IMG/VR virus record: IMGVR_UViG_3300034073_002585
Coordinates: 90,193-154,192 of that record
DNA from: a virus
Strand: one strand, 5' to 3'
Length of the DNA: 64,000 bases
The stretch's first letter is position 1, and each line of letters starts with the position of its first letter. Positions 45,783 to 64,000 of the stretch are shown here, piece by piece. Both the position numbers and the translations under genes were made by a program. The notes below the pieces were generated by a model. That model was given only the letters and a program-made list of their open reading frames with translations. It made no database searches and had not been told where the DNA came from.

Positions 45783-46616
45783 TTACGTGCTTCTATCCCA
45801 TGAGTTAGAGCCAGAGTTGTATATGTGAGCAAACGACCTCACCCACTCGCTTCCGTTATACACATAGACAGGTGATTTTTCCCAGGTTCCTGTGGATGAG
45901 TTGTAGATACTAATATCTCCTCCATCATCCTCTACTGTCATTGTAAGAGTTCCAGTGGTAATAGTGCCGCCATCACCATTTGCACTTACTACAAAGTTGT
46001 AGGTATTTGCGGAGCCTTGAACTGGTGTACCAGAAAGCAGCCCACTCGAACTTAAAGTTACCCCCACAGGGAGAGTTCCAGAGTACAGAGCATATGTAGA
46101 AGCGTTTACAGCCGAGAAGGTAGTCTCGGTTATGGGGCTACCCTCTGTTTCTGTGCTACTACTTAATATGTCTCCACCAGAAGCCCAGTAGGGAGCGGCA
46201 GGAAACCTGGGCGGGAAGAATGGTGGAAAATATGGAGGAAAATACGGCGGGAAGAATGGTGGAAAATATGGAGGAAAATACGGCGGGAAGAATGGTGGAA
46301 AATATGGAGGAAAATACGGTGGGAAGAATGGTGGTGGGCAAGCATCTGTGTATGAACCGCTTGTTTGGCTCTCGTATAAGGTTCCGCTAGTTGCACCAGA
46401 CAGTGTTGCAGAGAAAAAATATAGGGTACCGCATGACAGCGAGCTGGCAGTACCAGAAAACGAGTAGGATTCTCCTGTTGCTACCTGCTGAGACGCCACT
46501 TCAGTCGTTGGCCCGTACAGCCTAACAATTACTGGACCTGCTTGGGTATTTGTGCCAGATACGGTAGCAGTTAGGGAAGTAGTACTGCTGCCAGTAAAAC
46601 TTATGTTTATAGACAT
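45783..46616 (-). CDS. Ig-domain virion protein with a central (PP[YF]F)n-PPRFP repeat
   Basis: CPPPFFPPYFPPYFPPFF...PPRFP between beta-sandwich domains; C-terminal YNSSTGTW/YNGSEW repeats. Confidence 0.8.
   Translation of the reverse strand: MSINISFTGSSTTSLTATVSGTNTQAGPVIVRLYGPTTEVASQQVATGESYSFSGTASSLSCGTLYFFSATLSGATSGTLYESQTSGSYTDACPPPFFPPYFPPYFPPFFPPYFPPYFPPFFPPYFPPYFPPFFPPRFPAAPYWASGGDILSSSTETEGSPITETTFSAVNASTYALYSGTLPVGVTLSSSGLLSGTPVQGSANTYNFVVSANGDGGTITTGTLTMTVEDDGGDISIYNSSTGTWEKSPVYVYNGSEWVRSFAHIYNSGSNSWDRST
46200..46337 (-). repeat. 36-bp tandem repeats encoding PPFF/PPYF
   Basis: Plus-strand unit ggcgggaagaatggtggaaaatatggaggaaaatac x3 plus flanks. Confidence 0.9.
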
Positions 46617-46626
46617 TATCTAAACC

Positions 46627-47721
<1,095 letters not shown>

Positions 47722-51585: not shown

Positions 51586-51586
<1 letters not shown>

Positions 51587-51960
51587 TATCTGGTTACCTC
51601 AGCTCTCACAATAAACTTCCCTTGAACAATACGAGTAGTTTCGCCTCTAGAAGACTCTACTTCTACGTCATATACGTAAGTTCCTGGCTCGTATGCAGCC
51701 ATATCTGCAGGCGGAATTAGTAGAGTGACTGTCCCTGTAGAGCCGCCAACTGCTAAATACCCATTTTCTGTAGTATATTCAGCAACAACTACAGTGTTGG
51801 GGTCTCTAGTTACCCCGTTAAATGTTCTTACCTGCATACGAGCCACAAAACCTGCAAGGCTAATAGGCGTGCGAGCGGAGTTTTTGACTGTAAAGACCGT
51901 ATTTACAGTCGCGCCTTGGTCCACAACCATATCGTGAACGTTTCCGCGGAGATTTGCCAT
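51586..51960 (-). CDS. fibre anchor/collar-like beta-sandwich protein
   Basis: DQGAT...L.G..ARMQVR...YVYDVEV...TRIVQG.F.V..EVTR; TAATG-coupled to the largest collagen gene. Confidence 0.65.
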
Positions 51961-52063
51961 ACAGGGCGTCCTTACAGGGGGTAGACTAGTCCTTATAATT
52001 TTACCGCAATTTATGCGGATTTATTATTTTAGATAGTAACGGTAGTAGTGTATGATTACATCT

Positions 52064-52633
52064 ATGTCCTATAAACCTTATGGAAATGATGTAGAAATCT
52101 ACATATACGAAGATTTCTTGACTAATTATGAACTAGATTACCTATCTCAGTACATAAAAAACAAATCTGAAGAAGAAGAAGAAAGCTGGCAGGGAGAGCT
52201 CTCTAGCACCAAAGACACTAAGACCTGGGATAGCAGAAATCTTTTTATGGAGAGAAACGAAATATATGACTCCATCTACTCTAGATTTAAAGAGTTCTAT
52301 TCAAAAAATATTTTTCCTATTCCACTGGACTCGGAAGTTTTCAGCGGACTGGGCCCTATAGCTAGAACCCAGGTTGGCCAAGGATTGGCTTTACATGACG
52401 ATATGGGGCCACCAGAGTTACAAATAGACAACCTACATGGCGGCATAATCTACTTAAATGAAGATTTTGAAGGCGGGGAACTGTACTATAAAAATTTTGA
52501 TTATGTTATAAAACCAAAAACTGGAATGTTGGTGGTCCACTCGGCAAAGAGCGAATACACACATGGCGTTAAAGAGGTCTCTTCTGGCACCAGGTATGCA
52601 ATAACTCTTTTTATAAAAAATCCGTCTTCTTAG
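52064..52633 (+). CDS. 2OG-Fe(II) oxygenase (prolyl 4-hydroxylase-like)
   Basis: HDD...IIYLNEDFEGGEL...HGV..V..G.RY. Likely leaderless start at 52064 (ORF track gives 52052). Confidence 0.9.
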   Translation: MSYKPYGNDVEIYIYEDFLTNYELDYLSQYIKNKSEEEEESWQGELSSTKDTKTWDSRNLFMERNEIYDSIYSRFKEFYSKNIFPIPLDSEVFSGLGPIARTQVGQGLALHDDMGPPELQIDNLHGGIIYLNEDFEGGELYYKNFDYVIKPKTGMLVVHSAKSEYTHGVKEVSSGTRYAITLFIKNPSS

Positions 52634-52635: not shown

Positions 52636-53235
52636 TTAAAGATTTTTAATCCAAAAAACTGGTGACATATATTTATTTCCTTGAGTAACCTCTAGGGATT
52701 GGTGGTAAAACGGCTTCACTGATGGAAAAATAACAATGCTCCCAGCAAGTGGTTTTATTCTAATTCCCTGTTGTGGAAAATCTAGCTCCCCGCCGACACA
52801 GTCGTCATTGAGGTACATAACCCCAGACATAATAGGTTCTTTTGGTTGATTAGGGTACTCATCAACGTGAGCCCCCATAGAACCACCAACTATGTATTTG
52901 GAAATGCTCAGTGGTGACGGGTCAAAATATGGAAGGTCAAGCTCGCTACAATAGTGTCGTCCAGCAGACTCTAAAGCTCCTCGTAATGTGGTGTATATTT
53001 CCCTAACTTTATCCGAGCTTGTCTGTAATTTACGAGCATCCGTCTGTTTTTGGTATCCGAAGACATAATTTTCGTCATCAGAGGCTGTCCACTTTTTCCA
53101 CTTAAATATTGCGTCATTTTCAGTCAGTAGAGGCTCTAATGACTCTATGTCCTCTACTATTTTTTGCGGGTCGCTAAGAATATTTTTGTAGTAGAAAATT
53201 TGTTCGTGTAGCTTTTCTGGTTGCAAATCACTCAT
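52636..53235 (-). CDS. 2OG-Fe(II) oxygenase (P4H-like)
   Basis: HVD...YLNDDCVGGEL...FPSVKPFYHQS..V..G.KY. Confidence 0.9.
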   Translation of the reverse strand: MSDLQPEKLHEQIFYYKNILSDPQKIVEDIESLEPLLTENDAIFKWKKWTASDDENYVFGYQKQTDARKLQTSSDKVREIYTTLRGALESAGRHYCSELDLPYFDPSPLSISKYIVGGSMGAHVDEYPNQPKEPIMSGVMYLNDDCVGGELDFPQQGIRIKPLAGSIVIFPSVKPFYHQSLEVTQGNKYMSPVFWIKNL

Positions 53236-53244
53236 ATAAATATA

Positions 53245-53889
53245 CTAGTACAGATTTGCTTTCCATGCTGTGCCGATGTGGTACTTTACTCCGCTGGTTA
53301 TTTTAGTTGACTGATGGTAGAAAGGTTTTACGCATGGAAAAATTACTAAGGTTCCAGCATCAGATTTGACTAACACGTCTTGCTCTTTAAAATATAAGTC
53401 GCCACCCTCTTTGTCGCTATTGAGATAGAGGAGGCCCGTTGCGATTGGGGCTAGCTCTGGCTCTCCATCATAGTCAACGTGAGGTCCCATCTCTTGACCG
53501 TTGTCATATTGAAACGTTGCAAAGTCTGTCCAGTTCCTACCATCTTCATAGTCAATCCCTAAGCTTGAGTGGTAGAATTCTCCAACTGCATAAAAAAGGT
53601 CTTTTACCCAGCTATAGTAGTCTTTTACTTCTTGGCTGTTGGTTTTTTCTAAGCTGCCGTTATAGTTTTCAGCTTCCCTCTTTGTTCCGTACACATGTGG
53701 CATATCTATAGAAGATGTCTGCCAAGGGACCAATTTTCTAATTACAGCATCATTTGTTTCTGGCAAGTATTCATCTAAGTTGTGGTGTTTTTCTATCACC
53801 CAGGTACACTCTTCTTCAGAGAGAACTTCACGCATTACCATAATTTTGTCAGCATAAAACTCTGCTTGCTCGAAATTTAAATTAGGCAT
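53245..53889 (-). CDS. 2OG-Fe(II) oxygenase (P4H-like)
   Basis: HVD...YLNSDKEGGDL...FPCVKPFYHQS..I..G.KY. Confidence 0.9.
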   Translation of the reverse strand: MPNLNFEQAEFYADKIMVMREVLSEEECTWVIEKHHNLDEYLPETNDAVIRKLVPWQTSSIDMPHVYGTKREAENYNGSLEKTNSQEVKDYYSWVKDLFYAVGEFYHSSLGIDYEDGRNWTDFATFQYDNGQEMGPHVDYDGEPELAPIATGLLYLNSDKEGGDLYFKEQDVLVKSDAGTLVIFPCVKPFYHQSTKITSGVKYHIGTAWKANLY

Positions 53890-54586
53890 CAGTGTAGCCT
53901 AAGGACCATAAGGCTTTTTGCTCTGTCTGAAGTATGCGTTCAAATGCAATCTGAGCGTTTCTATTTCTTAAATCTTCTTCAGAATACTCTGAATCTGCGT
54001 AATCCCAGAAACCGACTATTGTTATTCTTTCACCAGTTTTAATTTCTTCTACCCTGTGAATGTTTTCTATGCCACCAGGAAAAGTTATTAAACTTCCTTT
54101 AGTTAATTTTATTTGCAAATCATAGTCTCTAAAAATTAATTCGCCGCCCTCGTAATCGTCGTTTAGATACAAAATGCTAGCAAACTTATTATTACCCCAG
54201 GCTGACGGTGTGCCGTCTAAATCGGAATTGTCTGAGTGCCATCTAGCAAAAGAACCAGTTGGCCAAAGCTGAGCATGAGTAGAGTTAGTAACAACTTCCC
54301 TATTAAATGCTGACTCTATTGCAGATTTTATTTCTAACCTAAGCCACTCAAAATAATTTTCGTGTCTTTGCTCTAAACCTGACTTCTCTAAAGCTTCTTG
54401 ACTAATAACTAGTGCCATTCCCCTAGAGCCATAAAAACATGTCTGCATCCAGTTACCATGATTTACCCCCTGGTCTTCGAAAAAATCAATAATCTGATTG
54501 CACTGCTCTTCGTCTAAAAATCCAGGAAATGTTGCTACATCATCCTTAAGCCAAACTGGTTCTTTTATAGTAGTTGTTGTCAGCAT
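53882..54586 (-). CDS. 2OG-Fe(II) oxygenase (P4H-like, HSDN subfamily)
   Basis: HSDNSD...YLNDDYEGGEL...HRV..I..GER. Confidence 0.9.
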   Translation of the reverse strand: MLTTTTIKEPVWLKDDVATFPGFLDEEQCNQIIDFFEDQGVNHGNWMQTCFYGSRGMALVISQEALEKSGLEQRHENYFEWLRLEIKSAIESAFNREVVTNSTHAQLWPTGSFARWHSDNSDLDGTPSAWGNNKFASILYLNDDYEGGELIFRDYDLQIKLTKGSLITFPGGIENIHRVEEIKTGERITIVGFWDYADSEYSEEDLRNRNAQIAFERILQTEQKALWSLGYTDA

Positions 54587-54616
54587 TGTGCTCCTATTGG
54601 TTACTACTATTATAAA

Positions 54617-55405
54617 TTATCTAACTGTTTGGTGAGAACGACGCCACTCTTCTTCTCTTACTTTCTCGAGCTCTGCCCAGGCCTCTTCTCCGTGTTCAGC
54701 TTCACCAGCTAACCATTCTGGGGTGCCTGGGAAAAACTCTAACCAAAAGTTTCTAATAAAGTATCTATCACCTTTTCTTAGTCTCTTTACTCCATGGTAG
54801 AAAGGCTCTACTGAGGGAAAAATTAGAATATCTCCAGCAGTAGGCTTATAGTCAAACTTTATGTCATTCGAGTCATCTTCTCTATTGTCTCTGAGAAGAA
54901 ACGCTAACTCTCCGCCCTCATAGTCATCATTTAAATACATTGTGCATGTTATTTTGAACTTATAGCCCCTAGCCTCTGCTCTTTCTGGGACCCAGTCGGT
55001 GTGGTAGTGCATAGACATTTCATCAGTTACCCCACCCTCTTCCCTATATACACAAACCGAAGGGTTTTGGTGCATCCAGGTATCTTGCTCTATGCCCAAC
55101 TCCTCGACATACATTTTTGTCGCTGCATAGAAATATTCTTCAATCTCTCTAGAAATGTCTGGAAATCGGGTTCTTTGAGATACCTCGTCAGATAGAAATG
55201 TTTCCCATTCCTTGTCGTCAGGAAACTTATTCCAAACTTTATCTACGCCACCTAGAGCGTCTGTAATGTGGCCAAATACCCACCACTTATTCCAGTCTGG
55301 TAGGGCCTTTAATTTTTCTAGCAACACTTCTGGATTTAGTATTCCACCTCTAAACACCCATACTTGAGGGTGAAGCTTTTCTAGGGTTCCTTTTAAGTGG
55401 TCCAT
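54617..55405 (-). CDS. 2OG-Fe(II) oxygenase (P4H-like)
   Basis: HTD...YLNDDYEGGEL...FPSVEPFYHGV...GDRY. Confidence 0.9.
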   Translation of the reverse strand: MDHLKGTLEKLHPQVWVFRGGILNPEVLLEKLKALPDWNKWWVFGHITDALGGVDKVWNKFPDDKEWETFLSDEVSQRTRFPDISREIEEYFYAATKMYVEELGIEQDTWMHQNPSVCVYREEGGVTDEMSMHYHTDWVPERAEARGYKFKITCTMYLNDDYEGGELAFLLRDNREDDSNDIKFDYKPTAGDILIFPSVEPFYHGVKRLRKGDRYFIRNFWLEFFPGTPEWLAGEAEHGEEAWAELEKVREEEWRRSHQTVR

Positions 55406-56160
55406 TACGTGTCCTTATTTCCGCTTGCCCAGCGTTCCCGCTGCTCTGCCTGCTCTTGTTCAACTCGAAGTTTCTCTTGAGCCCATTCTTCTTTTCTCTC
55501 ATCTGAATACTCGGCGTCTGCAAAGTCCCAAAACGAGACCATAGTGTACCTTTCTCCTCTGGTAACTTCACTTACTCCATGAATATTTTCGTGACCACCT
55601 GGGAAAACGTATAGTGACAAGTAGTTAGGCCTAAAGTCTATCTCATGTTCTGGAAAATATAGATGACCGCCATCATAGTCATCGCTCAAATATAAGATAC
55701 CTACATATTTGTTAATTTCGAATGATGATGGGTTCCCATCCATGTCGGAGTTATCTGAGTGGGGCATGGCAAAGGCTCCAGTTGGCCATTTTTGCCCGTG
55801 AGATGTGTTGGGTCTAACTTCACGACCAAACACTAGCTCCACTGCTTTTTTAAAAGATTCCCTTAAATCGCTAAATACCCCTAAATAAAGGCCAACTTCT
55901 TCTAGATTTTTATCGTCGTCTGGGAGCCTAAGACCTTTAGAGCTATAAAATGCAGAATAACCCCATACATCCTCAGGGGTAATTTCAAAGTACTTAACAA
56001 TACTTTTTGCAGTAGAGTCATCAATAAAGTTTGGTATTTCTACAATTTTATTTTCTAAAACGCCTAGTTTGCTGCCTTCTAGTGGCTCATCTTTGTAGTA
56101 AAAATAGGTGGAATCGTCGTAGTTCCCGAAGGCTAGGCCCACTTGTTTCCCCTCTCCCAC
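55405..56160 (-). CDS. 2OG-Fe(II) oxygenase (P4H-like, HSDN subfamily)
   Basis: HSDNSD...YLSDDYDGGHL...HGV..V..GERY. Confidence 0.9.
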   Translation of the reverse strand: MGEGKQVGLAFGNYDDSTYFYYKDEPLEGSKLGVLENKIVEIPNFIDDSTAKSIVKYFEITPEDVWGYSAFYSSKGLRLPDDDKNLEEVGLYLGVFSDLRESFKKAVELVFGREVRPNTSHGQKWPTGAFAMPHSDNSDMDGNPSSFEINKYVGILYLSDDYDGGHLYFPEHEIDFRPNYLSLYVFPGGHENIHGVSEVTRGERYTMVSFWDFADAEYSDERKEEWAQEKLRVEQEQAEQRERWASGNKDT

Positions 56161-56873
56161 TCCTGTTTCGCTAAAGCCTTAGAAAGTTCTACAATTTCTT
56201 TCTCCATAGCCCATTCTTTTTGTCGTTCTTCAGAGTAGGTTGCATCTGCGAAGTCCCAGAATGAAACCATAGTGTATCTTTCTCCTGAAAGGATTTCTGA
56301 TACTCCATGGATATTCTCTATTCCACCAGGGAAAGTTATAAAAGAACCTGCTTTCGGGGATATCCTGAGTTTTTCAGTGTGGACGTCTTCCGTTTCGACG
56401 AAGTATAGGTCACCACCTTCGTAATTATCGTTTAGGTATAAAATCCCTACATACTTATTAATCTCGAAAGACGTCGGGGTACCTTTAAAGTCAGAATTAT
56501 CTGAGTGAGGCGAGGCAAACCCTCCTGGCAACCACTTCTGCGAGTGTGCTGAGTTGGCCTTAACTGCCCTTTTAAATACAGACTCTACGCCTTTTTGAAA
56601 ATTGCCTTTTAACTCGTCAAAAAATCCTCTAGGCAGTCCGACCTCTTCTACAAGTGGGCTATTGTGGTCTATCCCCATGCCGCGGGAGCCGTAAAAAGCA
56701 ATATCTCCCCATAATTCAGCCTGAGCCTCTAAAAACTCGATAACTTTTGAACTGTTTTCGGGGGATATAAAGTTAGGAATCTCTACAATTCTATTTCTTG
56801 TGATTCCAATCTGGCTGACTGTAGTCTCTTCATCCAGATGCACAATAAAATTTGATTCATCAAAAAGTGTCAT
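56133..56873 (-). CDS. 2OG-Fe(II) oxygenase (P4H-like, HSDN subfamily)
   Basis: HSDNSD...YLNDNYEGGDL...HGV..I..GERY. Confidence 0.9.
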   Translation of the reverse strand: MTLFDESNFIVHLDEETTVSQIGITRNRIVEIPNFISPENSSKVIEFLEAQAELWGDIAFYGSRGMGIDHNSPLVEEVGLPRGFFDELKGNFQKGVESVFKRAVKANSAHSQKWLPGGFASPHSDNSDFKGTPTSFEINKYVGILYLNDNYEGGDLYFVETEDVHTEKLRISPKAGSFITFPGGIENIHGVSEILSGERYTMVSFWDFADATYSEERQKEWAMEKEIVELSKALAKQEWERGNKWA

Positions 56874-56884
56874 TTAAGTCTCTC

Positions 56885-57559
56885 CTACTTAAGGGCCTGC
56901 TCTTTAATTCCCTGTTCCCATTGCTGGTGCTGTTGTTCGTGAATTTTTGCAGTTTGTTCTAACTCTTTTTGCTTCTGTTCCCAGTACTCGTCTGGGTAGG
57001 TAGAATCTGCGTAATCAAATGACGCTAACATTGTCCATCTTTGTCCTGATGTTACTTCAGTAACCCCATGGATATTTTCGTACCCTACGTCAAATACTAC
57101 TACCGTGCCAGCTTCAGGAGCTATGTCGATATTGTGGTCCCTAAACACTAAATTACCACCCTCATAGTCATCGTTGAGGTAGATGATGGTGACTAGCTTA
57201 TTTTCTCTCCATGCGTTAGGGGTCCCATCTAGCTCCGTGTTGTCGGAGTGAAAAGCAGCAAAAGCCCCTGGCAACCATTTGTGGGCACTCAGGGTTAGAT
57301 TTTTTAGCTTTCTATCGAAAACACTTTCAGCTAATTCTTGAAATTTTTGCCTAAGATTTCTCATATAGGTTTCATCAATAGTGCTTGCTGGATTTGCCTG
57401 CCAGGGGGCAATAGGGTCCATAACTCTAGCGTTATAGAAACAGGTAAGCTGCCATGCCTCAGAGTTGCTTTCATAGTAATCTATTAAAGCCTGAGATTCT
57501 TCTCTTGACAGGAACTCTTTTACTTCTATTACATCGTGCTTATGAATTATTTTTTGCAA
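56885..57559 (-). CDS. 2OG-Fe(II) oxygenase (P4H-like, HSDN subfamily)
   Basis: HSDNTE...YLNDDYEGGNL...HGV..V..GQR. Confidence 0.9.
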   Translation of the reverse strand: MQKIIHKHDVIEVKEFLSREESQALIDYYESNSEAWQLTCFYNARVMDPIAPWQANPASTIDETYMRNLRQKFQELAESVFDRKLKNLTLSAHKWLPGAFAAFHSDNTELDGTPNAWRENKLVTIIYLNDDYEGGNLVFRDHNIDIAPEAGTVVVFDVGYENIHGVTEVTSGQRWTMLASFDYADSTYPDEYWEQKQKELEQTAKIHEQQHQQWEQGIKEQALK

Positions 57560-58193
57560 GATTATCCCTAACCAATAGTGTATTTATATTATACCTGTCG
57601 CAGCCTGTTATCTTTTCTACAGCGTGCACGTAAGTAGAAGGGAAAAGGACTATATCACCAGGGTTAGGACTATGAGAATAAAACTTTGTGCTCTCGTCAA
57701 AGTCTTCGTAGAAGTTAATGGAACCTCCGCCGAATCCAGAGTTTAGGTATACGTTTAGAGTTATGAGATATTCTCTAGAGCCGTCTCCGCCTGAGTCTGT
57801 GTGCAGTCCAGCGCTATCAGAAAAGTCGTGTCTATAGTGTCTAAGACCGTAGTTATCTATATAGCTGTCTTCAGGATATTTTAAATCGTATACTTCAGAG
57901 TAAACCTCATAGGCCGCATTTATGTAATCACTCAAGAACAGTAAGTCATGAAAAAAGGTATCGTCCTCTTCTTTTATAAAGTGCTCTGAGTAGGGGGTTC
58001 TCCTTAGAGAACTTGTGTAGCCAATTTTTCCCCATGGGTCAGTACTTATTACTGAGTACCTGTCTCCCGTAGGGCATGATTTAAAGTTGGACAAAATCCT
58101 TTCAACGTCTGGTATAGCACGTTCAATTAGAATAATATTTGGTGCTACTTCTTTAGCAGACTCTTTTAAGATAACTTTAAGGTTTTCGCTCAC
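57540..58193 (-). CDS. 2OG-Fe(II) oxygenase (P4H-like)
   Basis: HTD...YLNSGFGGGSI...FPS.Y.HAV..I...DRY. Confidence 0.85.
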   Translation of the reverse strand: MSENLKVILKESAKEVAPNIILIERAIPDVERILSNFKSCPTGDRYSVISTDPWGKIGYTSSLRRTPYSEHFIKEEDDTFFHDLLFLSDYINAAYEVYSEVYDLKYPEDSYIDNYGLRHYRHDFSDSAGLHTDSGGDGSREYLITLNVYLNSGFGGGSINFYEDFDESTKFYSHSPNPGDIVLFPSTYVHAVEKITGCDRYNINTLLVRDNLAKNNS

Positions 58194-58854
58194 CTTTATG
58201 CTCCACTATTGTCCAGAAAAACGGGCACACATATCTAATTCCAGATTTAATTGGGGTTACCCCGTGGATATAATTCATATCACCTGGGAAAAAGTATGCA
58301 GCTCCAGCTTTTGGTTTAAATTGAATTCCTTGGTGTGGGAAATAGAGTTCTCCACCCTCATAGTCATCATTTATATAAAAGAGGCCAGCGATGTCGTAGT
58401 ACGGGAAGTCATTAGGCTTACCTCTATTTTCACCCTCATGAAGTTCTTTATCTGCGTGTGGCATCTGAAGTTGTCCAGGTAGCCACCTAACTATTGCGGG
58501 GCTTGTGGCTCTAGCATCTACCTCAAAAAAATCATCTACTTTTTCCTTCAGACGCTTTTGCATATTTATAATTGTTTCAGTTATTAGAGGATTAACTTTA
58601 TCTAAAGTCTGAGCAGTTGCTACCCTGTGGTCCCAGTAGCTCGAATCGTAAATCACTACCCCGTCTTCATCATAATGAGTCTCGGTTATATCCCATGTAG
58701 TGTTATTTCTTGCAAAATCATTGAGTAGGGTAAGCTCTTCCTCGGTCATAAAGTCTTCTAGAGCGATTATGTTGTCCGCAGAGCGACCAAAAAAACCAGA
58801 AGGAGTTATAGAAAGTCTCTCATCATTGTGTTGATTTACTGTAGTGGAATCCAT
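58177..58854 (-). CDS. 2OG-Fe(II) oxygenase (P4H-like)
   Basis: HADKE...YINDDYEGGELYF...HGV..I..G.RY. Confidence 0.9.
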   Translation of the reverse strand: MDSTTVNQHNDERLSITPSGFFGRSADNIIALEDFMTEEELTLLNDFARNNTTWDITETHYDEDGVVIYDSSYWDHRVATAQTLDKVNPLITETIINMQKRLKEKVDDFFEVDARATSPAIVRWLPGQLQMPHADKELHEGENRGKPNDFPYYDIAGLFYINDDYEGGELYFPHQGIQFKPKAGAAYFFPGDMNYIHGVTPIKSGIRYVCPFFWTIVEHKGERKP

Positions 58855-58869
58855 AATTAATATCTTACC

Positions 58870-59610
58870 TTACTCATATTTTCGTCTTTCCCAAACTTCT
58901 TTTTGGTAGACTCCGCCATCTGGGACTCTGTATTTATCACTGTTTTGTTGGTTTTTTGTCACCATATCTTCGTGGGTAATTTTTATTACCACTTCTGATT
59001 CCCAGTGTTCTCGCTTGAAAGGAAGTATTTGCGCGTACGGTGTTCCCGCTGGGAGCACTCCAGTAAAACCTTCTGCAACAAAAAATGGCATTGTTCCTGG
59101 GAGATGTACTTTGTCGTTGTCAATAATTCCACTAGTTGTCAGAAATGGAAGCTCGAATCGATTGAACGGCTGGGTGTAGAGAGCACTATATCCCTCTGGT
59201 AGCTCTACTGCCCAGTCGGCCCACCACGCGAAATGCTTTTGGTGATATCCCATTGGGGCAACAAATTGAGCCATGGGGGGTCTATCTTGCAAAAAGTCTT
59301 TGTTTAAGTTATCTAAAACTTTTGCTTGTATCTGACCGTTCTGGTCTAAGTAAAACTCAATATCAGCTGGAGTCCTATAGACATAGCCTGTGCCCATAAT
59401 GTCAAAAACCGCTGGGCATGCTTTCCATGTTGGAATTTTTCCACTACCGTCTGGCATTTCCCATGGCTTGCCAGTCATGGGATTCATCGCAAACCTGTCT
59501 GCTTTTCTATACCAATCTGGGATTGTTTTTATTGTGGGTTTTGGTAGAGAAGCAGAGTCTTCATTTAGCCATGGTCTATTTATTGAAAACTTAATCTTCT
59601 GAGTGTCCAC
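58870..59610 (-). CDS. DUF6065-like protein (dUTPase-like fold, inferred)
   Basis: IPDWYRK, TWKACP..FD.M..GY, LPEGYS.L.TQP.NR..LPF.T..GIID.D, PAGTP.AQ.LPFKRE.W. Confidence 0.65.
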   Translation of the reverse strand: MDTQKIKFSINRPWLNEDSASLPKPTIKTIPDWYRKADRFAMNPMTGKPWEMPDGSGKIPTWKACPAVFDIMGTGYVYRTPADIEFYLDQNGQIQAKVLDNLNKDFLQDRPPMAQFVAPMGYHQKHFAWWADWAVELPEGYSALYTQPFNRFELPFLTTSGIIDNDKVHLPGTMPFFVAEGFTGVLPAGTPYAQILPFKREHWESEVVIKITHEDMVTKNQQNSDKYRVPDGGVYQKEVWERRKYE

Positions 59611-60358
59611 TTTCAGACCCTTCCTCTACTTCATAGGTCTGCCCAGTGAATGGACACGTAACGGTTTTAAGCTTTATGGATTTTGTCTCGTGGGTTCCTG
59701 CAGAAGTTCCATCCCAATTTAAAGCATCTCTGTACATTTTTGACCAATCTCCCGTCGCGTTCTTTTCCTGAGCAACATCGCCATATGTTTTTACGTCTTT
59801 CCAGTACTCTTCTGTAGGAAATTCTTCTAATAGTTGCATCTCGTAGTTGTCTTCCAAAGCCTTTAGTGAAATAGGGAGAACTGCTGCTATAGGAGTTCCT
59901 GCTGGTATGACTATTTCTTTGTTTGCTTCAGTAATTTTCCAAGCTACTGGAAGTTCTGGTTTATAAAAAGACGTACTAATTAGTGTAGTAAAACACTGTG
60001 TACCAGCTATGAACTGGTTTGGAACAGGCATAATCAAAGTTGTTGTATCAGGTTCAGTCCTAAAAATCAGACCAGTCATGAAACTAATAGTTGCATTTCC
60101 TCTACTGGGATTTGCCCATTCTTGGCCCTCCAGTATTGTTACATGCTCTGTGGTTGTATCGTCTATACCATCCCATATAAATCTGATATCTCCAGGGAAC
60201 GATATGCCCCAACCAAGTCTATTTGTTAGCGCCATGGGAAAGCACATGTAGGCGTGCTTGTTTTCGCTATTGTCCATCCACTCTCTAGTGGCAGACAGCT
60301 GCTCTATGTTTCCTGCATTAGGCCTATTTTTCTGTACAGTGATAATGCTTTTCTGCAT
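59591..60358 (-). CDS. DUF6065-like protein
   Basis: REWMD....HAYMCFPM...N..GW.I..P....F.WDG, PVPN, PAGTPIAA.LP. Confidence 0.7.
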   Translation of the reverse strand: MQKSIITVQKNRPNAGNIEQLSATREWMDNSENKHAYMCFPMALTNRLGWGISFPGDIRFIWDGIDDTTTEHVTILEGQEWANPSRGNATISFMTGLIFRTEPDTTTLIMPVPNQFIAGTQCFTTLISTSFYKPELPVAWKITEANKEIVIPAGTPIAAVLPISLKALEDNYEMQLLEEFPTEEYWKDVKTYGDVAQEKNATGDWSKMYRDALNWDGTSAGTHETKSIKLKTVTCPFTGQTYEVEEGSESGHSED

Positions 60359-61107
60359 TAATTACCCGTTTCCTCCAGGAATACTCCTCCATGGAATTTG
60401 TCCGAGTAGTCGAGCATTGTAACCATCGAGTATTTAGTCCCTGACTTAACTGGCATAGCGCGGTGCGGATACATAAAATTAGATGGGAAAATAAAAACGT
60501 CTCCAGCTCTTGCCTTGGCAGTCAAATTTTGAAGCCTAAAGTTTAGCTCGCCACCCTCATAGTCGTCATTAGGATATGCAACTAGGGATACAACACAGTT
60601 GTACGAATATCCGTGGTCATGGTGTTCTTGGAAGTGCTGCCCTGGGCCATACTTAACGTAGTTAGTTGCTTCCCAGTAGCGGAGTTCGCCAATGTGGTAA
60701 CGTCTGGTGTAATCTTTTACAACTTGCTTCTGCCTGTGTATTGTCTCTTCAGCTAGGCTTCTTAGCTTGTCGCCCCAAACGCTAGTGTCGTCATCAAAAT
60801 CATGCAACTTATATTTAAAATCCCAGCAGTCACGGTACTCTGGAATTTTCATAGAGTACCCAACCATAGCTTCTTGATACTCGTAGTCATTTTCTGGAGA
60901 GGAAAGAACTTCTTCAATTCTCTCTATAATCTTCATTTCTTTGGGTAGAACATCATGATATACCCATATCCCGCTACCAGGCTTAACTTCTTCTGCAGAG
61001 CTCCAAGTAACTTCGTCTAATTTGTACCATTCAGTTAGACGGTTATTCATTCTTTCTTGTTCTTCTGCGCCCTCTTTGGCTAGTTTTTCTTTTACTGTGT
61101 CTGACAT
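60358..61107 (-). CDS. 2OG-Fe(II) oxygenase (P4H-like)
   Basis: HHDHG...YPNDDYEGGEL...FPSNFMYPHRA..V..GTKYS. Likely leaderless start at 61107 (ORF track gives 61116). Confidence 0.9.
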   Translation of the reverse strand: MSDTVKEKLAKEGAEEQERMNNRLTEWYKLDEVTWSSAEEVKPGSGIWVYHDVLPKEMKIIERIEEVLSSPENDYEYQEAMVGYSMKIPEYRDCWDFKYKLHDFDDDTSVWGDKLRSLAEETIHRQKQVVKDYTRRYHIGELRYWEATNYVKYGPGQHFQEHHDHGYSYNCVVSLVAYPNDDYEGGELNFRLQNLTAKARAGDVFIFPSNFMYPHRAMPVKSGTKYSMVTMLDYSDKFHGGVFLEETGN

Positions 61108-61123
61108 ATTATTCATAATACCT

Positions 61124-61861
61124 TTAGTAAGTTAGTTTATACTCTGTAACCGTCTGGGATACTTTATTGTTTACACCGTCTCTGTCATTATAGTCGCTCA
61201 TTATTACTACAGAGTACTTAGTACCCTCAATCATTTCTTCTGAAGCGTGTTCATATATGTATGTTGAAGGAAAAACTACAATATCTCCAGCAGATGGTTT
61301 AAGTTTTAGATTGTCTAACCTAGGAAACCACAATTCTCCACCTACATAATTGTCGTTTAAATATACAACTATCGAAACTGTAGAGACATACGTAGGCCCG
61401 TGGTCAGCATGAATCCTAAAGTGCGTGCCTGCGCCCTCATACTTAACAAAATTAAATGCTTCGTAGGCTCTAATACCCACGCCCCAATAGGAGCCATAGT
61501 CATCGACGCACATACGAACTTTTTGAAAGATTTCTTCATGCATTTGATATAGTTTTTGATTCTCTGAAGTTTTAGGCCCTAAGCCTACCGAGTTGAACTT
61601 AAAGTCTTTAGCGTTTCTAGACTCTAGGTCAACCTCATCTGAGGTTGTAACATATGCTCCTCGCCAAGAGTATTGAGTTTGACCATTTAAGTGTGACTCT
61701 AAGGTGTCTACATATGTCTGACACTGAGACTCTGATAGTGCTTTTCTGTACACATTTACCCCCAGCGCTGGGTTAAGTACAGAAATATGGCCTATGGTTC
61801 TGTCTTTAGCCCTGTTACTAGCCGTCTCCGACCTGTCTTTAGTAAACCAATCATCGCTCAT
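61124..61861 (-). CDS. 2OG-Fe(II) oxygenase (P4H-like)
   Basis: HADHG...YLNDNYVGGEL...FPSTYIYEHAS..M..GTKYS. Confidence 0.9.
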   Translation of the reverse strand: MSDDWFTKDRSETASNRAKDRTIGHISVLNPALGVNVYRKALSESQCQTYVDTLESHLNGQTQYSWRGAYVTTSDEVDLESRNAKDFKFNSVGLGPKTSENQKLYQMHEEIFQKVRMCVDDYGSYWGVGIRAYEAFNFVKYEGAGTHFRIHADHGPTYVSTVSIVVYLNDNYVGGELWFPRLDNLKLKPSAGDIVVFPSTYIYEHASEEMIEGTKYSVVIMSDYNDRDGVNNKVSQTVTEYKLTY

Positions 61862-61879: not shown

Positions 61880-62887
61880 TTAGGTAGTTATGGGGGGCAT
61901 ATGCCTGAACTCTTGTCCGTGTCTATGAGCATTTAGCTTATGGTAATTTTCATCATATTCGCACCACTGCGGGTTTAGACCATACTTTTTGCAATACTCT
62001 AAAATTTTTTCTTTTGGTATGTTTCCGTATACTCCCTTTAAATTTCCCGACAAGAGCATGTTTAATTTTTTCATAGACTCGTCCGACTGGTCCCAGAAGG
62101 CGTCTTTATTTAAATCTGCCCACGGTCTGTGGGACACAGTTCTTGGCAACTCCTCGCCTGGATACTCTTTGTATGTGTCATGGTAGTAAAGAATCTTAGG
62201 GGTAGCATAAAATCGCCAGCCCCTTGCCCACGACTGTAGCGTTAAATATATTTCTTCGCCGTGGTAGTTCATGTCTGGGTCAATGGGTACTTCTTCTACA
62301 TACTTACTAGTGGAAAAAACCCAGCTACCCTGCCAATAGCAATCCTCTAAAACATCATCTGTATCTGGAACTGGCTCTACTTTAGGGAATCCATATCCAG
62401 GGATATAGTCAGAGTTTATCCTGGGTCTATAAAAATTTTTCAATCTTCCAGCTCGTGAATTATACGTTATATTGCCACTCTCATCAAACTCATACTCTGG
62501 GCCAGATACGGTTATGATTGCTTTTTCAGAGTGTTTACTGGCTTTTTCATATTCTTGTAAAACTATCTCATCCCAGTTTGGGGCAAATATATTGTGCCCA
62601 CACGTATATAAGATGTAGTCATATGTTGGAGAGACCTGTGTAGTTTTGTTTCTAGACCAGAGAACCCCTCTATATGTAGACAGGTTGTATTTTCTATATA
62701 TTATTTTGTCTTTAGATACAAAGTCTCTCAGGTTTGCGTGTAAGTCTTCAGATTCTTGTTCTGATACTACAGAAAAACTTATTCTGTGGGGGTATTTGGC
62801 CTTCTTCAAACAATCTTGTACAGATTCGTATAAATTTTTTTCTCTATATGCCACCATAGAGACTAATATTTTTTTATTGCTACTCAT
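61880..62887 (-). CDS. Gnt1/GT60-like (Skp1-hydroxyproline GlcNAc-transferase-like) glycosyltransferase
   Basis: ILVSMVAYRE...AKYP..I...V..Q, G..WSR, H..F..NWD, DP...YHGEEI....SW..GW..Y.....YH match the Gnt1-type pattern (IFVSIASYRD, DSH.RF..WD, GEE). Confidence 0.75.
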   Translation of the reverse strand: MSSNKKILVSMVAYREKNLYESVQDCLKKAKYPHRISFSVVSEQESEDLHANLRDFVSKDKIIYRKYNLSTYRGVLWSRNKTTQVSPTYDYILYTCGHNIFAPNWDEIVLQEYEKASKHSEKAIITVSGPEYEFDESGNITYNSRAGRLKNFYRPRINSDYIPGYGFPKVEPVPDTDDVLEDCYWQGSWVFSTSKYVEEVPIDPDMNYHGEEIYLTLQSWARGWRFYATPKILYYHDTYKEYPGEELPRTVSHRPWADLNKDAFWDQSDESMKKLNMLLSGNLKGVYGNIPKEKILEYCKKYGLNPQWCEYDENYHKLNAHRHGQEFRHMPPITT

Positions 62888-63668
62888 TGCTTGAGATTAT
62901 TTCATCTAAAAGAGTTTTCGGGGCTACCCAGCATTGAATACACTCTTCCCCATTAATTATGCAAGGGTAGTTATTTTCTGGTAAATCGTTAAAATATGGA
63001 GGATGACCAGAGTGTTCGTAATATCTAATGTCTCCGTCATGTCTATATTTTTGAATTAGCTCGTTAAATAAATCTTCTTGCTTCGGGTCCTGTAAATCTA
63101 AATCATAACCCCAGTGGGTTTCATCTACAAAAAGACCGAATAATAGAATTATGTATGCATCTTTGTTGTCTACAGGATACGGTGGTCTACTGTGAGTTTG
63201 TTGTTGACCCATAAAGAAAATTCCACTATTCTCTGCTTCATCAAACTGAGTGCCGTCAACAATTACGCCCCAGCTGTCAAAACCAGAAATTTCTACGCAA
63301 AAATCTAGGGTGTATTGGCACACGCTCTGGTCCATATGCTCCCACAGATAAGGAGTAACCCCGTTGTGTTGTTGGTATCTAGCTGACCAGAGTACTTTTA
63401 ATCTAAGATTTTCATTGCCCCAGTGCTTTTTTGCGGTTGCTAATACTTTGTCCCGAATTTCTTGAGAAAAGTTTGGTTCGGAAACCCAGCGGCCAACGAT
63501 TGTGTGGTAAGGAGTAGCCGAGCCTGGTCCCCAGTCGGAGTCTCTGGCTATGGTATTTTTAATCTCTTCTAGCGTTTCCTTATCAAAAAGATTAGCTACT
63601 TTAAATGCCTCTATACCTTCTGGAAGTGGCCACTTAATGTTTTTACTGGAATCGGCATTTATCGGCAT
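62880..63668 (-). CDS. divergent 2OG-Fe(II) oxygenase-like protein
   Basis: ARYQ...P.LWEHMD..C.YTLD...W.....G......F.GQ...HSR. HxD...H triad present. Confidence 0.65.
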   Translation of the reverse strand: MPINADSSKNIKWPLPEGIEAFKVANLFDKETLEEIKNTIARDSDWGPGSATPYHTIVGRWVSEPNFSQEIRDKVLATAKKHWGNENLRLKVLWSARYQQHNGVTPYLWEHMDQSVCQYTLDFCVEISGFDSWGVIVDGTQFDEAENSGIFFMGQQQTHSRPPYPVDNKDAYIILLFGLFVDETHWGYDLDLQDPKQEDLFNELIQKYRHDGDIRYYEHSGHPPYFNDLPENNYPCIINGEECIQCWVAPKTLLDEIISSNE

Positions 63669-63729: not shown

Positions 63730-64000
63730 TTACTTATCTTCCTCAGGGGTATCAAAATCTTCTACAGAGAAGATAGAGAACCTAGGTGGGAAGTATGGTG
63801 GGAAGTAAGGTGGGAAGTATGGGAACCTAGGTGGGAAGTAAGGTGGGAAGTAAGGTGGGAAGTATGGGAACCTAGGTGGGAAGTAAGGTGGGAAGTAAGG
63901 TGGGAAGTAAGGTGGGAAGTAAGGTGGGAAGTAAGGTGGGAAGTAAGGTGGGAAGTAAGGTGGGAAGTAAGGTGGGAAGTAAGGTGGGAAGTAAGGTGGG
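63730..64000 (-). CDS. 5'-truncated (FPPY)n/FPPRF proline-aromatic repeat protein (not in the ORF track)
   Basis: Minus-strand translation ...(PPYF)10 PPRFPYFPPYFPPYFPPRFPYFPPYFPPYFPPRFSIFSVEDFDTPEEDK*, stop at 63730-63732, followed by a terminator. Confidence 0.8.
   Translation of the reverse strand, partial: PPYFPPYFPPYFPPYFPPYFPPYFPPYFPPYFPPYFPPYFPPRFPYFPPYFPPYFPPRFPYFPPYFPPYFPPRFSIFSVEDFDTPEEDK
63881..64000. repeat. ten perfect 12-bp tandem repeats (aagtaaggtggg) running to the window edge
   Basis: Counted directly; degenerate copies continue back to ~63780. Confidence 0.95.

What the first reader, a model, noticed from the sequence alone, without database searches (positions are those of the whole stretch)
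46200..46337. The same PP[YF]F...PPRF motif, written with different codons, in an Ig-domain protein of the fibre cluster: a portable modification tag?
Seen: the 277-aa protein carries PPPFFPPYFPPYF...PPFFPPRFP encoded with CCG/CCA/CCT, TAT, TTT/TTC codons in 36-bp units. The window-edge protein uses TTC CCA CCT TAC in 12-bp units. Both repeat tracts end in FPPRF. Different DNA with the same peptide and the same terminal Arg unit implies selection at the protein level. Inference: PP[YF]F...PPRF is a recognition tag or polyproline-II stalk, placed between Ig domains of a virion tip protein, linking the oxygenase array to the virion.
Basis: partly seen in the sequence, partly recalled or inferred. 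Interest (0 to 1): 0.85.

Follow-up and report, generated by a model that had tools for sequence, protein, structure and literature searches.

The report
Proline-aromatic rod linked to phage hydroxylases
A small fibre-cluster protein of an uncultured 154-kb phage joins two antibody-like domains through a 46-residue Pro-Pro-Tyr/Phe-Phe repeat; the same undescribed repeat occurs on many unrelated phage proteins and almost always lies beside collagen-type proline hydroxylase genes, so it is a testable candidate substrate, though no chemistry has been shown.

Summary
The 277-aa ORF (45783-46616, minus strand) carries PPPFF(PPYFPPYFPPFF)x3 PPRFP at 46200-46337. The window-edge gene carries (PPYF)n with other codons, and both tracts end in PPRF.

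Selection on the peptide is real, but this genome shows it only weakly. A relative that is 47% identical in the flanks keeps 33 tract residues unchanged, with 20 synonymous and no amino-acid changes.

The tract (PPxF; x mostly F, Y or H) sits between two Ig-like domains. It is portable: more than 100 proteins with unrelated N- and C-terminal domains carry it.

It travels with prolyl-hydroxylase-type 2OG oxygenases. 44 of 49 tract-bearing viral records have them, against 4 of 50 random records. The nearest oxygenase gene is usually the next gene (median gap 301 bp), with no collagen gene in those loci.

The link runs one way: five cultured cyanophages have 7-13 such enzymes and no tract. The terminal Arg is enriched across families but not conserved among orthologues.

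Best reading: a polyproline-II-type rod that is the enzymes' likely substrate. Hydroxylation, rod structure and virion location are untested. I found no published description. This scan has noted the same module on other phage DNA several times.

The parts
45783..46616 (-). 277-aa gene: Ig-like N domain, PPxF tract, He_PIG Ig domain, three C-terminal beta-hairpins
   Evidence: ORF. Pfam He_PIG 7.3e-8, 33.2 bits against a cut-off of 24. 155 database relatives. AlphaFold2 model with mean pLDDT 80.
46200..46337 (-). PPxF tract, aa 94-139: PPPFF(PPYFPPYFPPFF)x3 PPRFP
   Evidence: In the model it has no helix or strand and pLDDT below 50 at aa 103-122. It is kept in all 14 aligned orthologues at 34-89% identity, with lengths of 18-46 aa.
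46347..46616 (-). N-terminal Ig-like beta-sandwich (aa 1-90), the part that is swapped among relatives
   Evidence: pLDDT about 90 with seven strands. Foldseek matches tandem Ig, FN3 and cadherin structures. The same C-terminal module is joined to at least 8 unrelated N domains.
45933..46154 (-). He_PIG Ig-like domain (aa 155-228)
   Evidence: Pfam PF05345; pLDDT 85-93.
45792..45911 (-). Three hairpin-like repeats: IYNSSTGTW, VYVYNGSEW, IYNSGSNSW
   Evidence: W245, Y266 and W273 are invariant in orthologues. The preceding collagen-like gene ends at GDIWIQRP*, the first half of a motif that is complete inside the 449-aa fibre protein. Docking is an inference.
46627..47721 (-). 364-aa collagen-like fibre gene directly upstream of the 277-aa gene
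   Evidence: Pfam Collagen 7.8e-23. The order collagen gene then tract protein is kept in L132, L133, L134 and L009.
63730..64000 (-). C-terminal part of the second PPxF gene; its N-terminal fn3 part lies at contig bases 1-798
52636..61861 (-). Array of 11 PF13640 (prolyl-hydroxylase-type) oxygenase genes with two DUF6065/phrog_7084 genes at 58870-60358
   Evidence: H165, D167 and H218 are invariant. The profile hits P3H1 (8k0e, 2.9e-14), B. anthracis P4H (3itq and 5hv0, 8e-13) and PBCV-1 P4H (5c5t, 7.7e-8).
52052..52633 (+). Twelfth PF13640 oxygenase gene, on the opposite strand
   Evidence: Pfam 2.9e-10; phrog_61.
61880..62887 (-). Glycosyltransferase of Pfam family PF11397, which holds the Skp1 hydroxyproline GlcNAc-transferase
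   Evidence: Pfam 1.1e-23, 84.8 bits. The family is present in only 3 of 49 other tract-bearing records.
62880..63668 (-). 262-aa ORF of unknown family between the second PPxF gene and the glycosyltransferase
   Evidence: No Pfam or PHROG match. hhalign against the oxygenase profile gives probability 0.2%.
51586..51960 (-). 124-aa gene resembling a tail-fibre assembly protein, at the head of the collagen-like gene block
   Evidence: phrog_1084 1.1e-20; phrog_3304 (L-shaped tail fibre assembly) 1.9e-9.

Best explanation
The PP[YF]F tract is a self-contained structural module kept by selection on the protein. It is most likely an extended polyproline-II-type rod, about 14 nm long for 46 residues, studded with aromatic side chains.

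In the 277-aa protein it holds a swappable N-terminal Ig-like domain away from a conserved base. The base is a He_PIG Ig domain plus three hairpins, which probably sits on the end of the preceding collagen-like fibre.

The same module has been joined to many unrelated domains in phage fibre-region proteins. It is the probable substrate of the prolyl-hydroxylase-type 2OG oxygenases that phages encode next to it. In this phage a hydroxyproline-type GlcNAc-transferase homologue may add sugar afterwards.

Shown here:
- the sequence and its conservation;
- the domain layout;
- portability across unrelated host domains;
- genetic linkage to the enzymes.

Inferred:
- the polyproline-II conformation;
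- the attachment to the fibre;
- hydroxylation of the tract.
For: Selection on the peptide:
- All 14 aligned orthologues, at 34-89% identity, keep a tract.
- The syntenic relative L132 has 33 identical tract residues with 20 of 33 codons changed, all synonymously. Its flanking domains are only 47% identical, and its repeat units have diverged from one another at the DNA level.

Structure:
- AlphaFold2 gives two confident beta-sandwiches separated by a stretch with no helix or strand. Foldseek matches tandem Ig, FN3 and cadherin structures.
- The x residue repeats every third unit, that is every 12 aa, in 43 of 66 distinct runs. Twelve is the least common multiple of the 4-aa unit and the 3-residue polyproline-II turn, so Tyr or His would line up on fixed faces of the helix (inference).

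Portability:
- The tract is joined to at least 6 N-terminal and at least 8 C-terminal BLAST clusters. These include fn3, weakly PASTA-like, He_PIG and unnamed domains. The N-terminal flank is never missing.

Linkage to the enzymes:
- More than 120 viral contigs carry the tract.
- 44 of 49 tract-bearing records have PF13640, mostly 5-11 copies, against 4 of 50 random records. Fisher's exact p = 1e-17.
- The median gap from the tract ORF to the nearest oxygenase ORF is 301 bp. In 53 of 78 cases the oxygenase lies downstream, on the same strand and within 1 kb.
- None of the 86 loci that hold both tract and oxygenase has a collagen-like ORF.

Enzyme class:
- The His-x-Asp...His residues are invariant, and the best PDB profile hits are peptidyl-prolyl 3- and 4-hydroxylases.
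- A PF11397 glycosyltransferase lies beside the second tract gene.

Established knowledge:
- The PBCV-1 P4H hydroxylates that virus's own proline-rich repeats (Eriksson et al. 1999, as cited in PMC9301287).
Against: - No chemistry has been done. Nothing here shows a hydroxyproline.
- The tract region of the model has pLDDT below 50, so the rod is not a prediction of the model.
- Five cultured cyanomyoviruses have 7-13 PF13640 genes each and no tract, so the enzymes have other targets.
- Twelve diverged paralogues seem too many for a tract with three or four unit types.
- In this genome the 277-aa gene lies 6 kb from the array, with four genes between them (a tail-fibre-assembly-like gene and three collagen-like genes), so collagen is an alternative target locally.
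- The relative in L009 has no PF13640 gene within 10 kb, only a TauD-type gene.
- The PF11397 glycosyltransferase occurs in only 3 of 49 tract-bearing records.
- The fibre cluster lies about 20 kb from the main tail module. No proteomic evidence places the protein in the virion.
Confidence: 0.55

Rival explanations
1. The tract is an unmodified spacer. It is only a rigid or sticky linker, and it travels with the oxygenases because both belong to one mobile fibre-region cassette. The enzymes act on something else: collagen-like fibres, host proteins, or small molecules, as was proposed for the cyanophage Syn9 array.
For: - Cyanomyoviruses carry 7-13 PF13640 genes without any tract.
- Iyer et al. 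2010 proposed a role in secondary metabolism for the Syn9 array (PMC2938197).
- In this genome, collagen-like genes lie between the array and the 277-aa gene.
- L009 has the tract protein but no PF13640 gene within 10 kb.
Against: - Gene adjacency is the rule: the median gap is 301 bp, and in 53 of 78 cases the oxygenase is downstream on the same strand.
- That adjacency is found in loci with no collagen-like ORF at all.
- It also holds in records with no detectable relative of this phage's major head protein, 0 of 30 (which had no positive control). Simple co-inheritance is therefore a weak explanation.
- The enzymes' closest solved relatives act on peptidyl proline.
Confidence: 0.25
2. The tract is a recombination joint. 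The repetitive CCN CCN TWY TTY DNA serves mainly as an in-frame crossover site that lets phages swap the domains on either side. Collagen-like repeats have been suggested to do this around variable regions of other phage receptor-binding proteins (recalled from memory, not checked here).
For: - The same He_PIG plus hairpin C-terminal module is joined through the tract to at least 8 unrelated N domains. One N-terminal cluster pairs with at least 4 different C-terminal clusters.
- Tract length differs in 12-aa steps among near-identical proteins: 45, 33 and 21 aa in P0001 to P0003.
- Assemblies often break in the tract.
Against: - It does not explain the strict peptide conservation despite 20 synonymous changes.
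- It does not explain the conserved F/Y/H pattern.
- It does not explain the linkage to oxygenases.
- The two tracts of this genome use different codons, which reduces DNA homology between them.
- It fits better as a side effect than as the function.
Confidence: 0.1
3. The tract is a recognition tag in the strict sense. It docks the enzymes, like a RiPP leader peptide, so that they modify other parts of the same protein or of a partner, and is not itself the product.
For: - The same tract occurs on two otherwise different proteins of one phage. Pairs of tract genes in one contig use similar unit types, but not significantly so: mean cosine 0.86 against 0.74 for random pairs, p = 0.067.
- Arg is enriched in the last unit, 16% against 0.9% in internal units.
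Against: - In 48 of 110 viral tract ORFs, at most 15 residues follow the tract, and the flanking domains are unrelated to one another. No common second target exists.
- The tract is long and varies in length, unlike a leader peptide.
- The terminal Arg is not conserved among orthologues.
Confidence: 0.07
4. The tract is low-complexity filler made by replication slippage and has no function of its own.
For: Both tracts of this genome are recent amplifications with 98-100% identical units. Copy number varies among close relatives.
Against: - The tract is retained at 34% flank identity.
- L132 has 20 synonymous and no non-synonymous differences, and its units have diverged from one another at the DNA level.
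- In prokaryote genome contigs the pattern is almost absent, apart from a few mixed tracts on MAG contigs and simple repeats in short, probably non-coding frames.
Confidence: 0.03

Closest known systems
Chlorovirus PBCV-1 prolyl 4-hydroxylase (PDB 5c5t) and that virus's own proline-rich repeat proteins (Eriksson et al. 1999, as cited in PMC9301287)
   Same: A virus encodes both a P4H-type 2OG oxygenase and proline-rich tandem repeats that could be its substrate. The window's oxygenase profile matches 5c5t at 7.7e-8.
   Different: - The PBCV-1 repeats, recalled from memory as of the (Pro-Ala-Pro-Lys)n type, are not PPxF and lack aromatic residues.
- PBCV-1 has one enzyme, not an array of 12.
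- Its host is a eukaryotic alga.
- Hydroxylation was shown in vitro there and has not been shown here.
Tandem dioxygenase arrays of cyanophages such as Synechococcus phage Syn9 (Iyer, Abhiman, de Souza and Aravind 2010, PMC2938197)
   Same: Many diverged 2OG dioxygenase genes lie in tandem in a phage genome, and their substrate is unknown. Cyanomyoviruses hold the only cultured-phage relatives of the window's enzymes.
   Different: - The five cyanomyoviruses tested have no PPxF tract.
- The Syn9 array includes JmjC-type enzymes and halogenases and was proposed to make secondary metabolites.
- Here the array is flanked by fibre-type genes and a tract gene.
Collagen and bacterial or phage collagen-like fibres (Gly-X-Y triple helix) with collagen P4H and P3H
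   Same: Both are proline-rich repetitive rods in extracellular or fibre proteins. The enzyme class is the same: the best PDB hits are P3H1 and Bacillus anthracis P4H. Collagen-like genes flank the 277-aa gene.
   Different: - The tract has no Gly and a 4-residue rather than 3-residue unit, so it cannot form a collagen triple helix.
- Half of its residues are aromatic.
- No Pfam family covers it and no PDB sequence matches it.
Plant extensins, Ser-Pro(3-5) repeats with Tyr that are hydroxylated and then O-glycosylated (knowledge from memory)
   Same: Both are polyproline-II-type Pro/Tyr-rich rods. The proposed order, P4H followed by a hydroxyproline-directed glycosyltransferase, is mirrored here by a PF11397 homologue.
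   Different: - The tract has no Ser-Pro(n) motif and no YxY cross-link motif.
- It has Phe at every fourth residue.
- The glycosyltransferase is present in only 3 of 49 tract-bearing records.
Skp1 prolyl-hydroxylation and GlcNAc pathway of Dictyostelium and Toxoplasma (family PF11397)
   Same: A P4H-type enzyme and a PF11397-family glycosyltransferase are encoded together.
   Different: Skp1 is modified at a single proline in a globular protein. Here the candidate substrate is a long repeat, and the glycosyltransferase is an accessory found in a minority of phages.

Membership tests
He_PIG putative Ig domain (PF05345) | Match to the Pfam model above its gathering score | tested here: met
   33.2 bits against a cut-off of 24, aa 155-228. 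The region is modelled as a beta-sandwich with pLDDT 85-93.
Collagen triple helix (PF01391, Gly-X-Y) | Gly at every third residue over a long run | tested here: not met
   The tract contains no Gly and has a 4-residue unit. Pfam Collagen does not match the 277-aa protein.
Polyproline-II rod or stalk (for example the AgI/II P-region or extensin) | Extended left-handed helix without main-chain hydrogen bonds, shown by circular dichroism, NMR or a structure | tested here: inconclusive
   The model shows no helix or strand over aa 93-140, but pLDDT is below 50 at aa 103-122. The 12-aa super-period of x fits a three-fold helix, but this is indirect.
Extensin-type hydroxyproline-rich glycoprotein | Ser-Pro(3-5) motifs with Tyr cross-link motifs | tested here: not met
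   There is no Ser in the tract, and the units are PPFF, PPYF and PPRF.
Virus-encoded P4H with a virus-encoded Pro-rich substrate (PBCV-1 type) | P4H-type 2OG oxygenase with the His-x-Asp...His iron-binding residues in the same genome | tested here: met
   Twelve PF13640 matches. H165, D167 and H218 are invariant. Profile hits to P3H1, B. anthracis P4H and PBCV-1 P4H.
Virus-encoded P4H with a virus-encoded Pro-rich substrate (PBCV-1 type) | Proline-rich tandem repeat protein genetically linked to the enzyme | tested here: met
   44 of 49 against 4 of 50 records. The median gap is 301 bp.
Virus-encoded P4H with a virus-encoded Pro-rich substrate (PBCV-1 type) | Demonstrated hydroxylation of the repeat by the enzyme | not testable with these tools
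   This needs mass spectrometry or an enzyme assay.
RiPP precursor or leader tag | Short precursor peptide with a leader that docks enzymes and a separate core that is modified and released | tested here: not met
   The tract is embedded in folded multi-domain proteins of 150-480 aa. No common second region exists.
Skp1-type hydroxyproline glycosylation | PF11397 glycosyltransferase consistently partnered with the hydroxylase and its substrate | tested here: inconclusive
   The family is present in this genome at 84.8 bits but in only 3 of 49 other tract-bearing records, all of which are fragments.

The most novel reading that the evidence does not exclude
PPxF tracts are the natural substrate of the phage dioxygenase arrays, whose role has been open since 2010. 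After hydroxylation, and in some phages glycosylation, they would form a new class of aromatic polyproline rod, a phage counterpart of collagen or extensin. Phages would use this rod as a length-adjustable, exchangeable stalk for distal binding domains.
Probability: 0.4. Interest if true: 0.8.

Novelty: new variant of a known kind. Interest (0 to 1): 0.62.

Why it matters
Prolyl 4-hydroxylase genes rank among the most abundant 'auxiliary' genes in the aquatic viromes of one Baltic Sea survey, which states that their use by viruses 'remains cryptic' (PMC9301287). Tandem dioxygenase arrays in phages have had no known substrate since they were described (PMC2938197).

A short, synthesisable repeat that lies next to these enzymes in about nine of ten tract-bearing phage fragments makes the question testable at the bench: one peptide, one enzyme, one mass shift.

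This particular finding adds three things:
- The repeat is not tied to one carrier protein. In the same phage it also forms the joint between two Ig-like domains of a fibre-end protein.
- The repeat's peptide pattern is held fixed while its DNA drifts.
- The domain beyond the repeat is the part that phages exchange.

If the rod model holds, it would also be a new sequence solution for a stiff protein spacer.

Tried and rejected
- blastn and megablast of the gene and of a structural region against 50,697 GenBank phage records found nothing. No cultured relative is on hand.
- Full-text search for PPYF, FPPY, PPFF, FPPF and PPHF returned only unrelated uses: Amanita cyclic peptides, bitter peptides and acronyms. 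I found no description of the repeat.
- phmmer of the 277-aa protein against all PDB sequences at E up to 10 gave no match.
- The ESM Atlas look-up returned only generic He_PIG Ig clusters.
- hhalign of the 262-aa ORF against the oxygenase profile gave probability 0.2%. That ORF stays unassigned.
- Tract and oxygenase fused in one ORF: none among 120 loci. The apparent zero distances were overlapping stop-to-stop frames.
- The idea that the two tracts of one phage are matched to each other: mean cosine of unit-type usage 0.86 against 0.74 for random pairs, p = 0.067, 7 pairs. Not significant, so dropped as evidence.
- The idea that a Hyp-GlcNAc transferase is a core partner: PF11397 occurs in only 3 of 49 tract-bearing records. 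Rejected as a general feature.
- The idea that collagen is the enzymes' consistent partner: none of the 86 loci with tract and oxygenase has a collagen-like ORF.
- Genome-contig scan of 185,579 prokaryote species: 80 hits. Nearly all are simple PPLF or PPHF DNA repeats in short, probably non-coding frames. About 7 are real mixed tracts on MAG contigs, 5 of them with an oxygenase nearby. The tract is not a cellular protein feature.
- The search for this phage's major head protein in 30 tract-bearing records was empty. There was no positive control and the records are fragments, so this only suggests several lineages.
Full report
**What is there**

The finding lies in a 277-aa ORF on the minus strand (45783-46616). 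Residues 94-139 read PPPFF(PPYFPPYFPPFF)x3 PPRFP, encoded at 46200-46337. Tandem Repeats Finder reports a 36-bp unit, 3.5 copies and 98% matches.

The second tract, at the window edge (63730-63999, minus strand), has a 12-bp unit CCA CCT TAC TTC. It is followed by three PPRF-containing units and a 15-residue acidic tail.

The codon claim is correct:
- Tract A uses TAT TTT for Tyr-Phe and a mix of Pro codons.
- Tract B uses TAC TTC and CCA CCT.
- Arg is AGG in both.

A six-frame scan of the whole 154,192-bp genome finds no third tract.

The edge gene is whole. The record's 'direct terminal repeat' is the 12-bp repeat itself. Every possible overlap, from 16 to 124 bp in steps of 12, closes the circle in frame. 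The result is one protein of 315-351 aa with an fn3 domain, 20-29 PPxF units and the acidic tail. The copy number cannot be read from this assembly.

**Is the peptide under selection?**

Within this genome the case is thin. Each tract is a recent DNA amplification, so only about 12 plus 4 codons are independent. Relatives settle the question.
- Fourteen orthologues at 34-89% identity all keep a tract of 18-46 residues between the same two domains.
- Near-identical proteins differ in tract length by 12-aa steps (45, 33 and 21 aa), so length changes quickly by slippage.
- In the syntenic relative L132, the first 33 tract residues are identical to the window's. Of the 33 codons, 20 differ and all 20 changes are synonymous. 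The flanking domains are only 47% identical, and L132's own repeat units have diverged from each other at the DNA level.
- One orthologue has PPNF and PPDF units, so the constant part is Pro-Pro-x-Phe.

The terminal Arg is not conserved among orthologues, where the last x is R, Y, T, N, A or L. Across all tract-bearing proteins, however, Arg fills 16% of last units against 0.9% of internal ones. Phe drops from 56% of internal units to 7% of last units. These sequences are not independent of one another. The tracts therefore tend to end in a polar unit, and Arg is one common choice.

**Anatomy of the 277-aa protein**

AlphaFold2 on the orthologue alignment gives mean pLDDT 80 and the following parts:
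- a seven-stranded beta-sandwich at aa 1-90 (pLDDT about 90);
- a stretch without helix or strand at aa 93-140 (pLDDT below 50 at 103-122);
- the He_PIG Ig domain at about aa 150-230 (Pfam 7.3e-8);
- short strands to the C-terminus.

Foldseek finds only tandem Ig, FN3 and cadherin structures. No PDB sequence matches.

The C-terminus holds three hairpin-like repeats: IYNSSTGTW, VYVYNGSEW and IYNSGSNSW. The collagen-like gene just upstream ends at GDIWIQRP*. This is the first half of a motif that is complete inside the 449-aa fibre protein ([22 protein letters not shown]). The same pairing recurs with the 582-aa collagen-like gene, which ends GDIWISF*, and the 612-aa Ig protein that follows it. 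I confirmed the motifs but not the docking.

Among relatives, the tract, He_PIG domain and hairpins form a constant module joined to at least 8 unrelated N-terminal domains. The N domain is therefore the exchanged part and presumably the distal one. As a polyproline-II helix at 3.1 Å per residue, 46 residues would span about 14 nm (inference).

**Neighbourhood**

Read along the minus strand from the contig junction, the order of genes is:
1. the fn3-PPxF gene;
2. a 262-aa ORF of unknown family;
3. a PF11397 glycosyltransferase, in the family of the Skp1 hydroxyproline GlcNAc-transferase;
4. eleven PF13640 oxygenases with two DUF6065-like genes, plus a twelfth oxygenase on the plus strand;
5. 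a gene resembling a tail-fibre assembly protein;
6. collagen-like genes of 834, 449 and 364 aa;
7. the 277-aa gene;
8. a collagen-like gene of 582 aa;
9. a 612-aa He_PIG/Flg_new protein;
10. the primase.

The eleven aligned oxygenases share only 17-33% identity but keep His-x-Asp...His. Their profile matches prolyl 3-hydroxylase 1 (2.9e-14), Bacillus anthracis P4H (8e-13), PKHD-type hydroxylases, PBCV-1 P4H (7.7e-8), Chlamydomonas P4H, lysyl hydroxylase LH3 and PHD2.

The main head and tail genes lie on the other strand at 1-23,105: portal-containing polyprotein, major head protein, major tail protein, tape measure and tail fibre. The fibre cluster discussed here is thus a separate block, and its place on the particle is not known.

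**The tract elsewhere**

A protein search gave 155 hits. About 30 are He_PIG relatives. The rest match through the tract alone and carry fn3, weakly PASTA-like or unnamed domains.

After removing the tract, the flanks fall into 31 BLAST clusters. The largest N-terminal clusters have 52, 46, 11 and 7 members, and the largest C-terminal clusters 27, 27, 12, 7 and 6. The N-terminal flank is never missing. In 19 of 132 proteins the tract is C-terminal.

The x residue is F, Y or H in 96% of internal units. It repeats with a period of three units (12 aa) in 43 of 66 distinct runs and of five units in 16.

Many contigs end inside the tract, so it often breaks assemblies. In one genome for each of 185,579 prokaryote species the same pattern gave 80 hits. 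Nearly all are simple repeats in short, probably non-coding frames. About seven are true mixed tracts on MAG contigs. The tract is essentially a virus feature.

**Link to the oxygenases**

- 44 of 49 tract-bearing viral records have PF13640 matches, mostly 5-11 per record.
- 4 of 50 records drawn with an arbitrary 16-mer have them. Fisher's exact p = 1e-17.
- With an HMM built from the window's own paralogues, 86 of 120 tract loci hold an oxygenase ORF. Most of these loci are under 15 kb.
- The median gap between tract ORF and nearest oxygenase ORF is 301 bp, and 71 of 84 gaps are at most 1 kb.
- In 75 of 78 cases the oxygenase lies downstream of the tract gene. In 53 it is downstream, on the same strand and within 1 kb.
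- None of the 86 loci contains a collagen-like ORF. The consistent partner of the enzymes is therefore the tract, not collagen.
- The 277-aa gene family keeps its own arrangement. In L132 the order is six oxygenases, three collagen-like genes, the tract protein, then a collagen-like gene. In L136 it is eight oxygenases and then the tract protein.

Limits of the link:
- Five cultured cyanomyoviruses have 7-13 PF13640 matches each and no tract.
- L009 has the tract protein with only a TauD-type gene nearby.
- PF11397 occurs in 3 of 49 tract-bearing records.
- None of 30 tract-bearing records has a detectable relative of this phage's major head protein. That search had no positive control and the records are fragments. 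It hints that the module crosses phage lineages.

**How it most likely works**

Proline at two of every four positions rules out helix and sheet, and the absence of Gly rules out a collagen triple helix. The likeliest conformation is a polyproline-II helix.

With a 4-residue unit on a 3-residue turn, the pattern returns to the same face every 12 residues. That is the observed super-period of x. In FYY tracts one face would be purely Pro and Phe. In HFF tracts one face would carry His. With half its residues aromatic, such a rod would probably pack against copies of itself or a partner. All of this is inference.

P4H-type enzymes bind peptides in this conformation (recalled from memory for the Chlamydomonas enzyme; not checked here). 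A virus-encoded P4H acts on its own virus's Pro-rich repeats in PBCV-1 (Eriksson et al. 1999, as cited in PMC9301287). The gene adjacency therefore points to hydroxylation of the tract prolines, which could stiffen or solubilise the rod or prepare it for sugar addition in the few phages that have the PF11397 enzyme.

A side observation concerns translation. In an E. coli reporter lacking elongation factor P, FPPF and FPPY were among the diprolyl contexts with only marginal effect on translation, FPPR had a moderate effect, and FPPP had the strongest (bioRxiv 10.1101/2024.08.03.606492). The tract's composition is thus the proline-rich sequence that ribosomes read most easily. This may partly explain the choice of F and Y.

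**What remains open**

- Why twelve diverged enzymes are needed for three or four unit types.
- What the 262-aa and DUF6065-like proteins do.
- Whether the tract is modified at all.

**Comparison with what is known**

The closest system is PBCV-1 P4H with that virus's proline-rich repeats. It has the same enzyme class and the same logic, but a different repeat, a single enzyme and a eukaryotic host.

Cyanophage dioxygenase arrays (Iyer et al. 2010, PMC2938197) share the enzyme expansion but not the tract. They were assigned to secondary metabolism.

Collagen and extensin are functional analogues, but their defining motifs are absent here. One Baltic Sea virome survey says the viral use of P4H 'remains cryptic' (PMC9301287). 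I found no paper that describes PPxF repeats.

Earlier notes of this same scan report the tract-plus-hydroxylase module on this genome's neighbouring region and on several other phage genomes. Within the scan, therefore, this is a repeat sighting. My counts were made independently and agree with those notes.

**Verdict**

This is a new variant of a known kind: a virus-encoded hydroxylase with a virus-encoded Pro-rich repeat. The repeat class is undescribed, it is portable, and in this gene it forms the joint between Ig-like domains of a probable fibre-end protein.

Noticed in passing
window 63784-64000 and contig bases 1-162 (L008): The record's 'direct terminal repeat', on which its 100% completeness rests, is only the 12-bp PPYF tandem repeat. 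Overlaps of 16-124 bp all fit. The circle probably closes, since both halves of one gene meet in frame, but the repeat copy number and the exact genome length are undetermined.
   Followed up: yes
window 42140-43978, 43978-45726, 45783-46616, 46627-47721: Two collagen-like genes end at GDIWIQRP* and GDIWISF*, the first half of a motif that is complete inside the 449-aa fibre protein. Each is followed by an Ig-domain protein that ends in three hairpin-like repeats. One chain may cap one collagen trimer.
   Followed up: partly
window 62880-63668 (-): A 262-aa ORF lies between the fn3-PPxF gene and the glycosyltransferase. It has no Pfam or PHROG match and no hhalign similarity to the oxygenases. 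Its position suggests it belongs to the same pathway.
   Followed up: partly
window 58870-60358 (-): Two DUF6065/phrog_7084 genes are embedded in the oxygenase array. The pairing of PF13640 with DUF6065 recurs next to a weakly PASTA-like PPxF protein on an unrelated 110-kb contig (L010).
   Followed up: partly
L012-L131 (IMG/VR loci): Many viral contigs begin or end inside a PPxF tract, for example L017, L027, L030, L050, L051, L053, L057, L063, L073, L074 and L080. The repeat is a common assembly breakpoint, so tract genes are probably under-called in viromes.
   Followed up: no
protein P0007 (orthologue, 45% identity): Its tract uses PPNF and PPDF units in place of PPYF and PPFF before ending in PFFPPFFPPTF. 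Only Pro-Pro-x-Phe is constant, so the aromatic x is not obligatory.
   Followed up: no
window 22033-22240 (+): A 60-bp (and 30-bp) tandem repeat lies inside the 1037-aa tail-fibre gene (19992-23105). It encodes units of the type ITAEKIEAGA.
   Followed up: no
window 12155-12266: Two short 15-bp tandem repeats lie in the gap between the head-tail adaptor gene and the next ORF.
   Followed up: no
window 1845-6506 (+): A 1553-aa ORF combines matches to portal, head-maturation protease and virion structural protein families in one frame.
   Followed up: no
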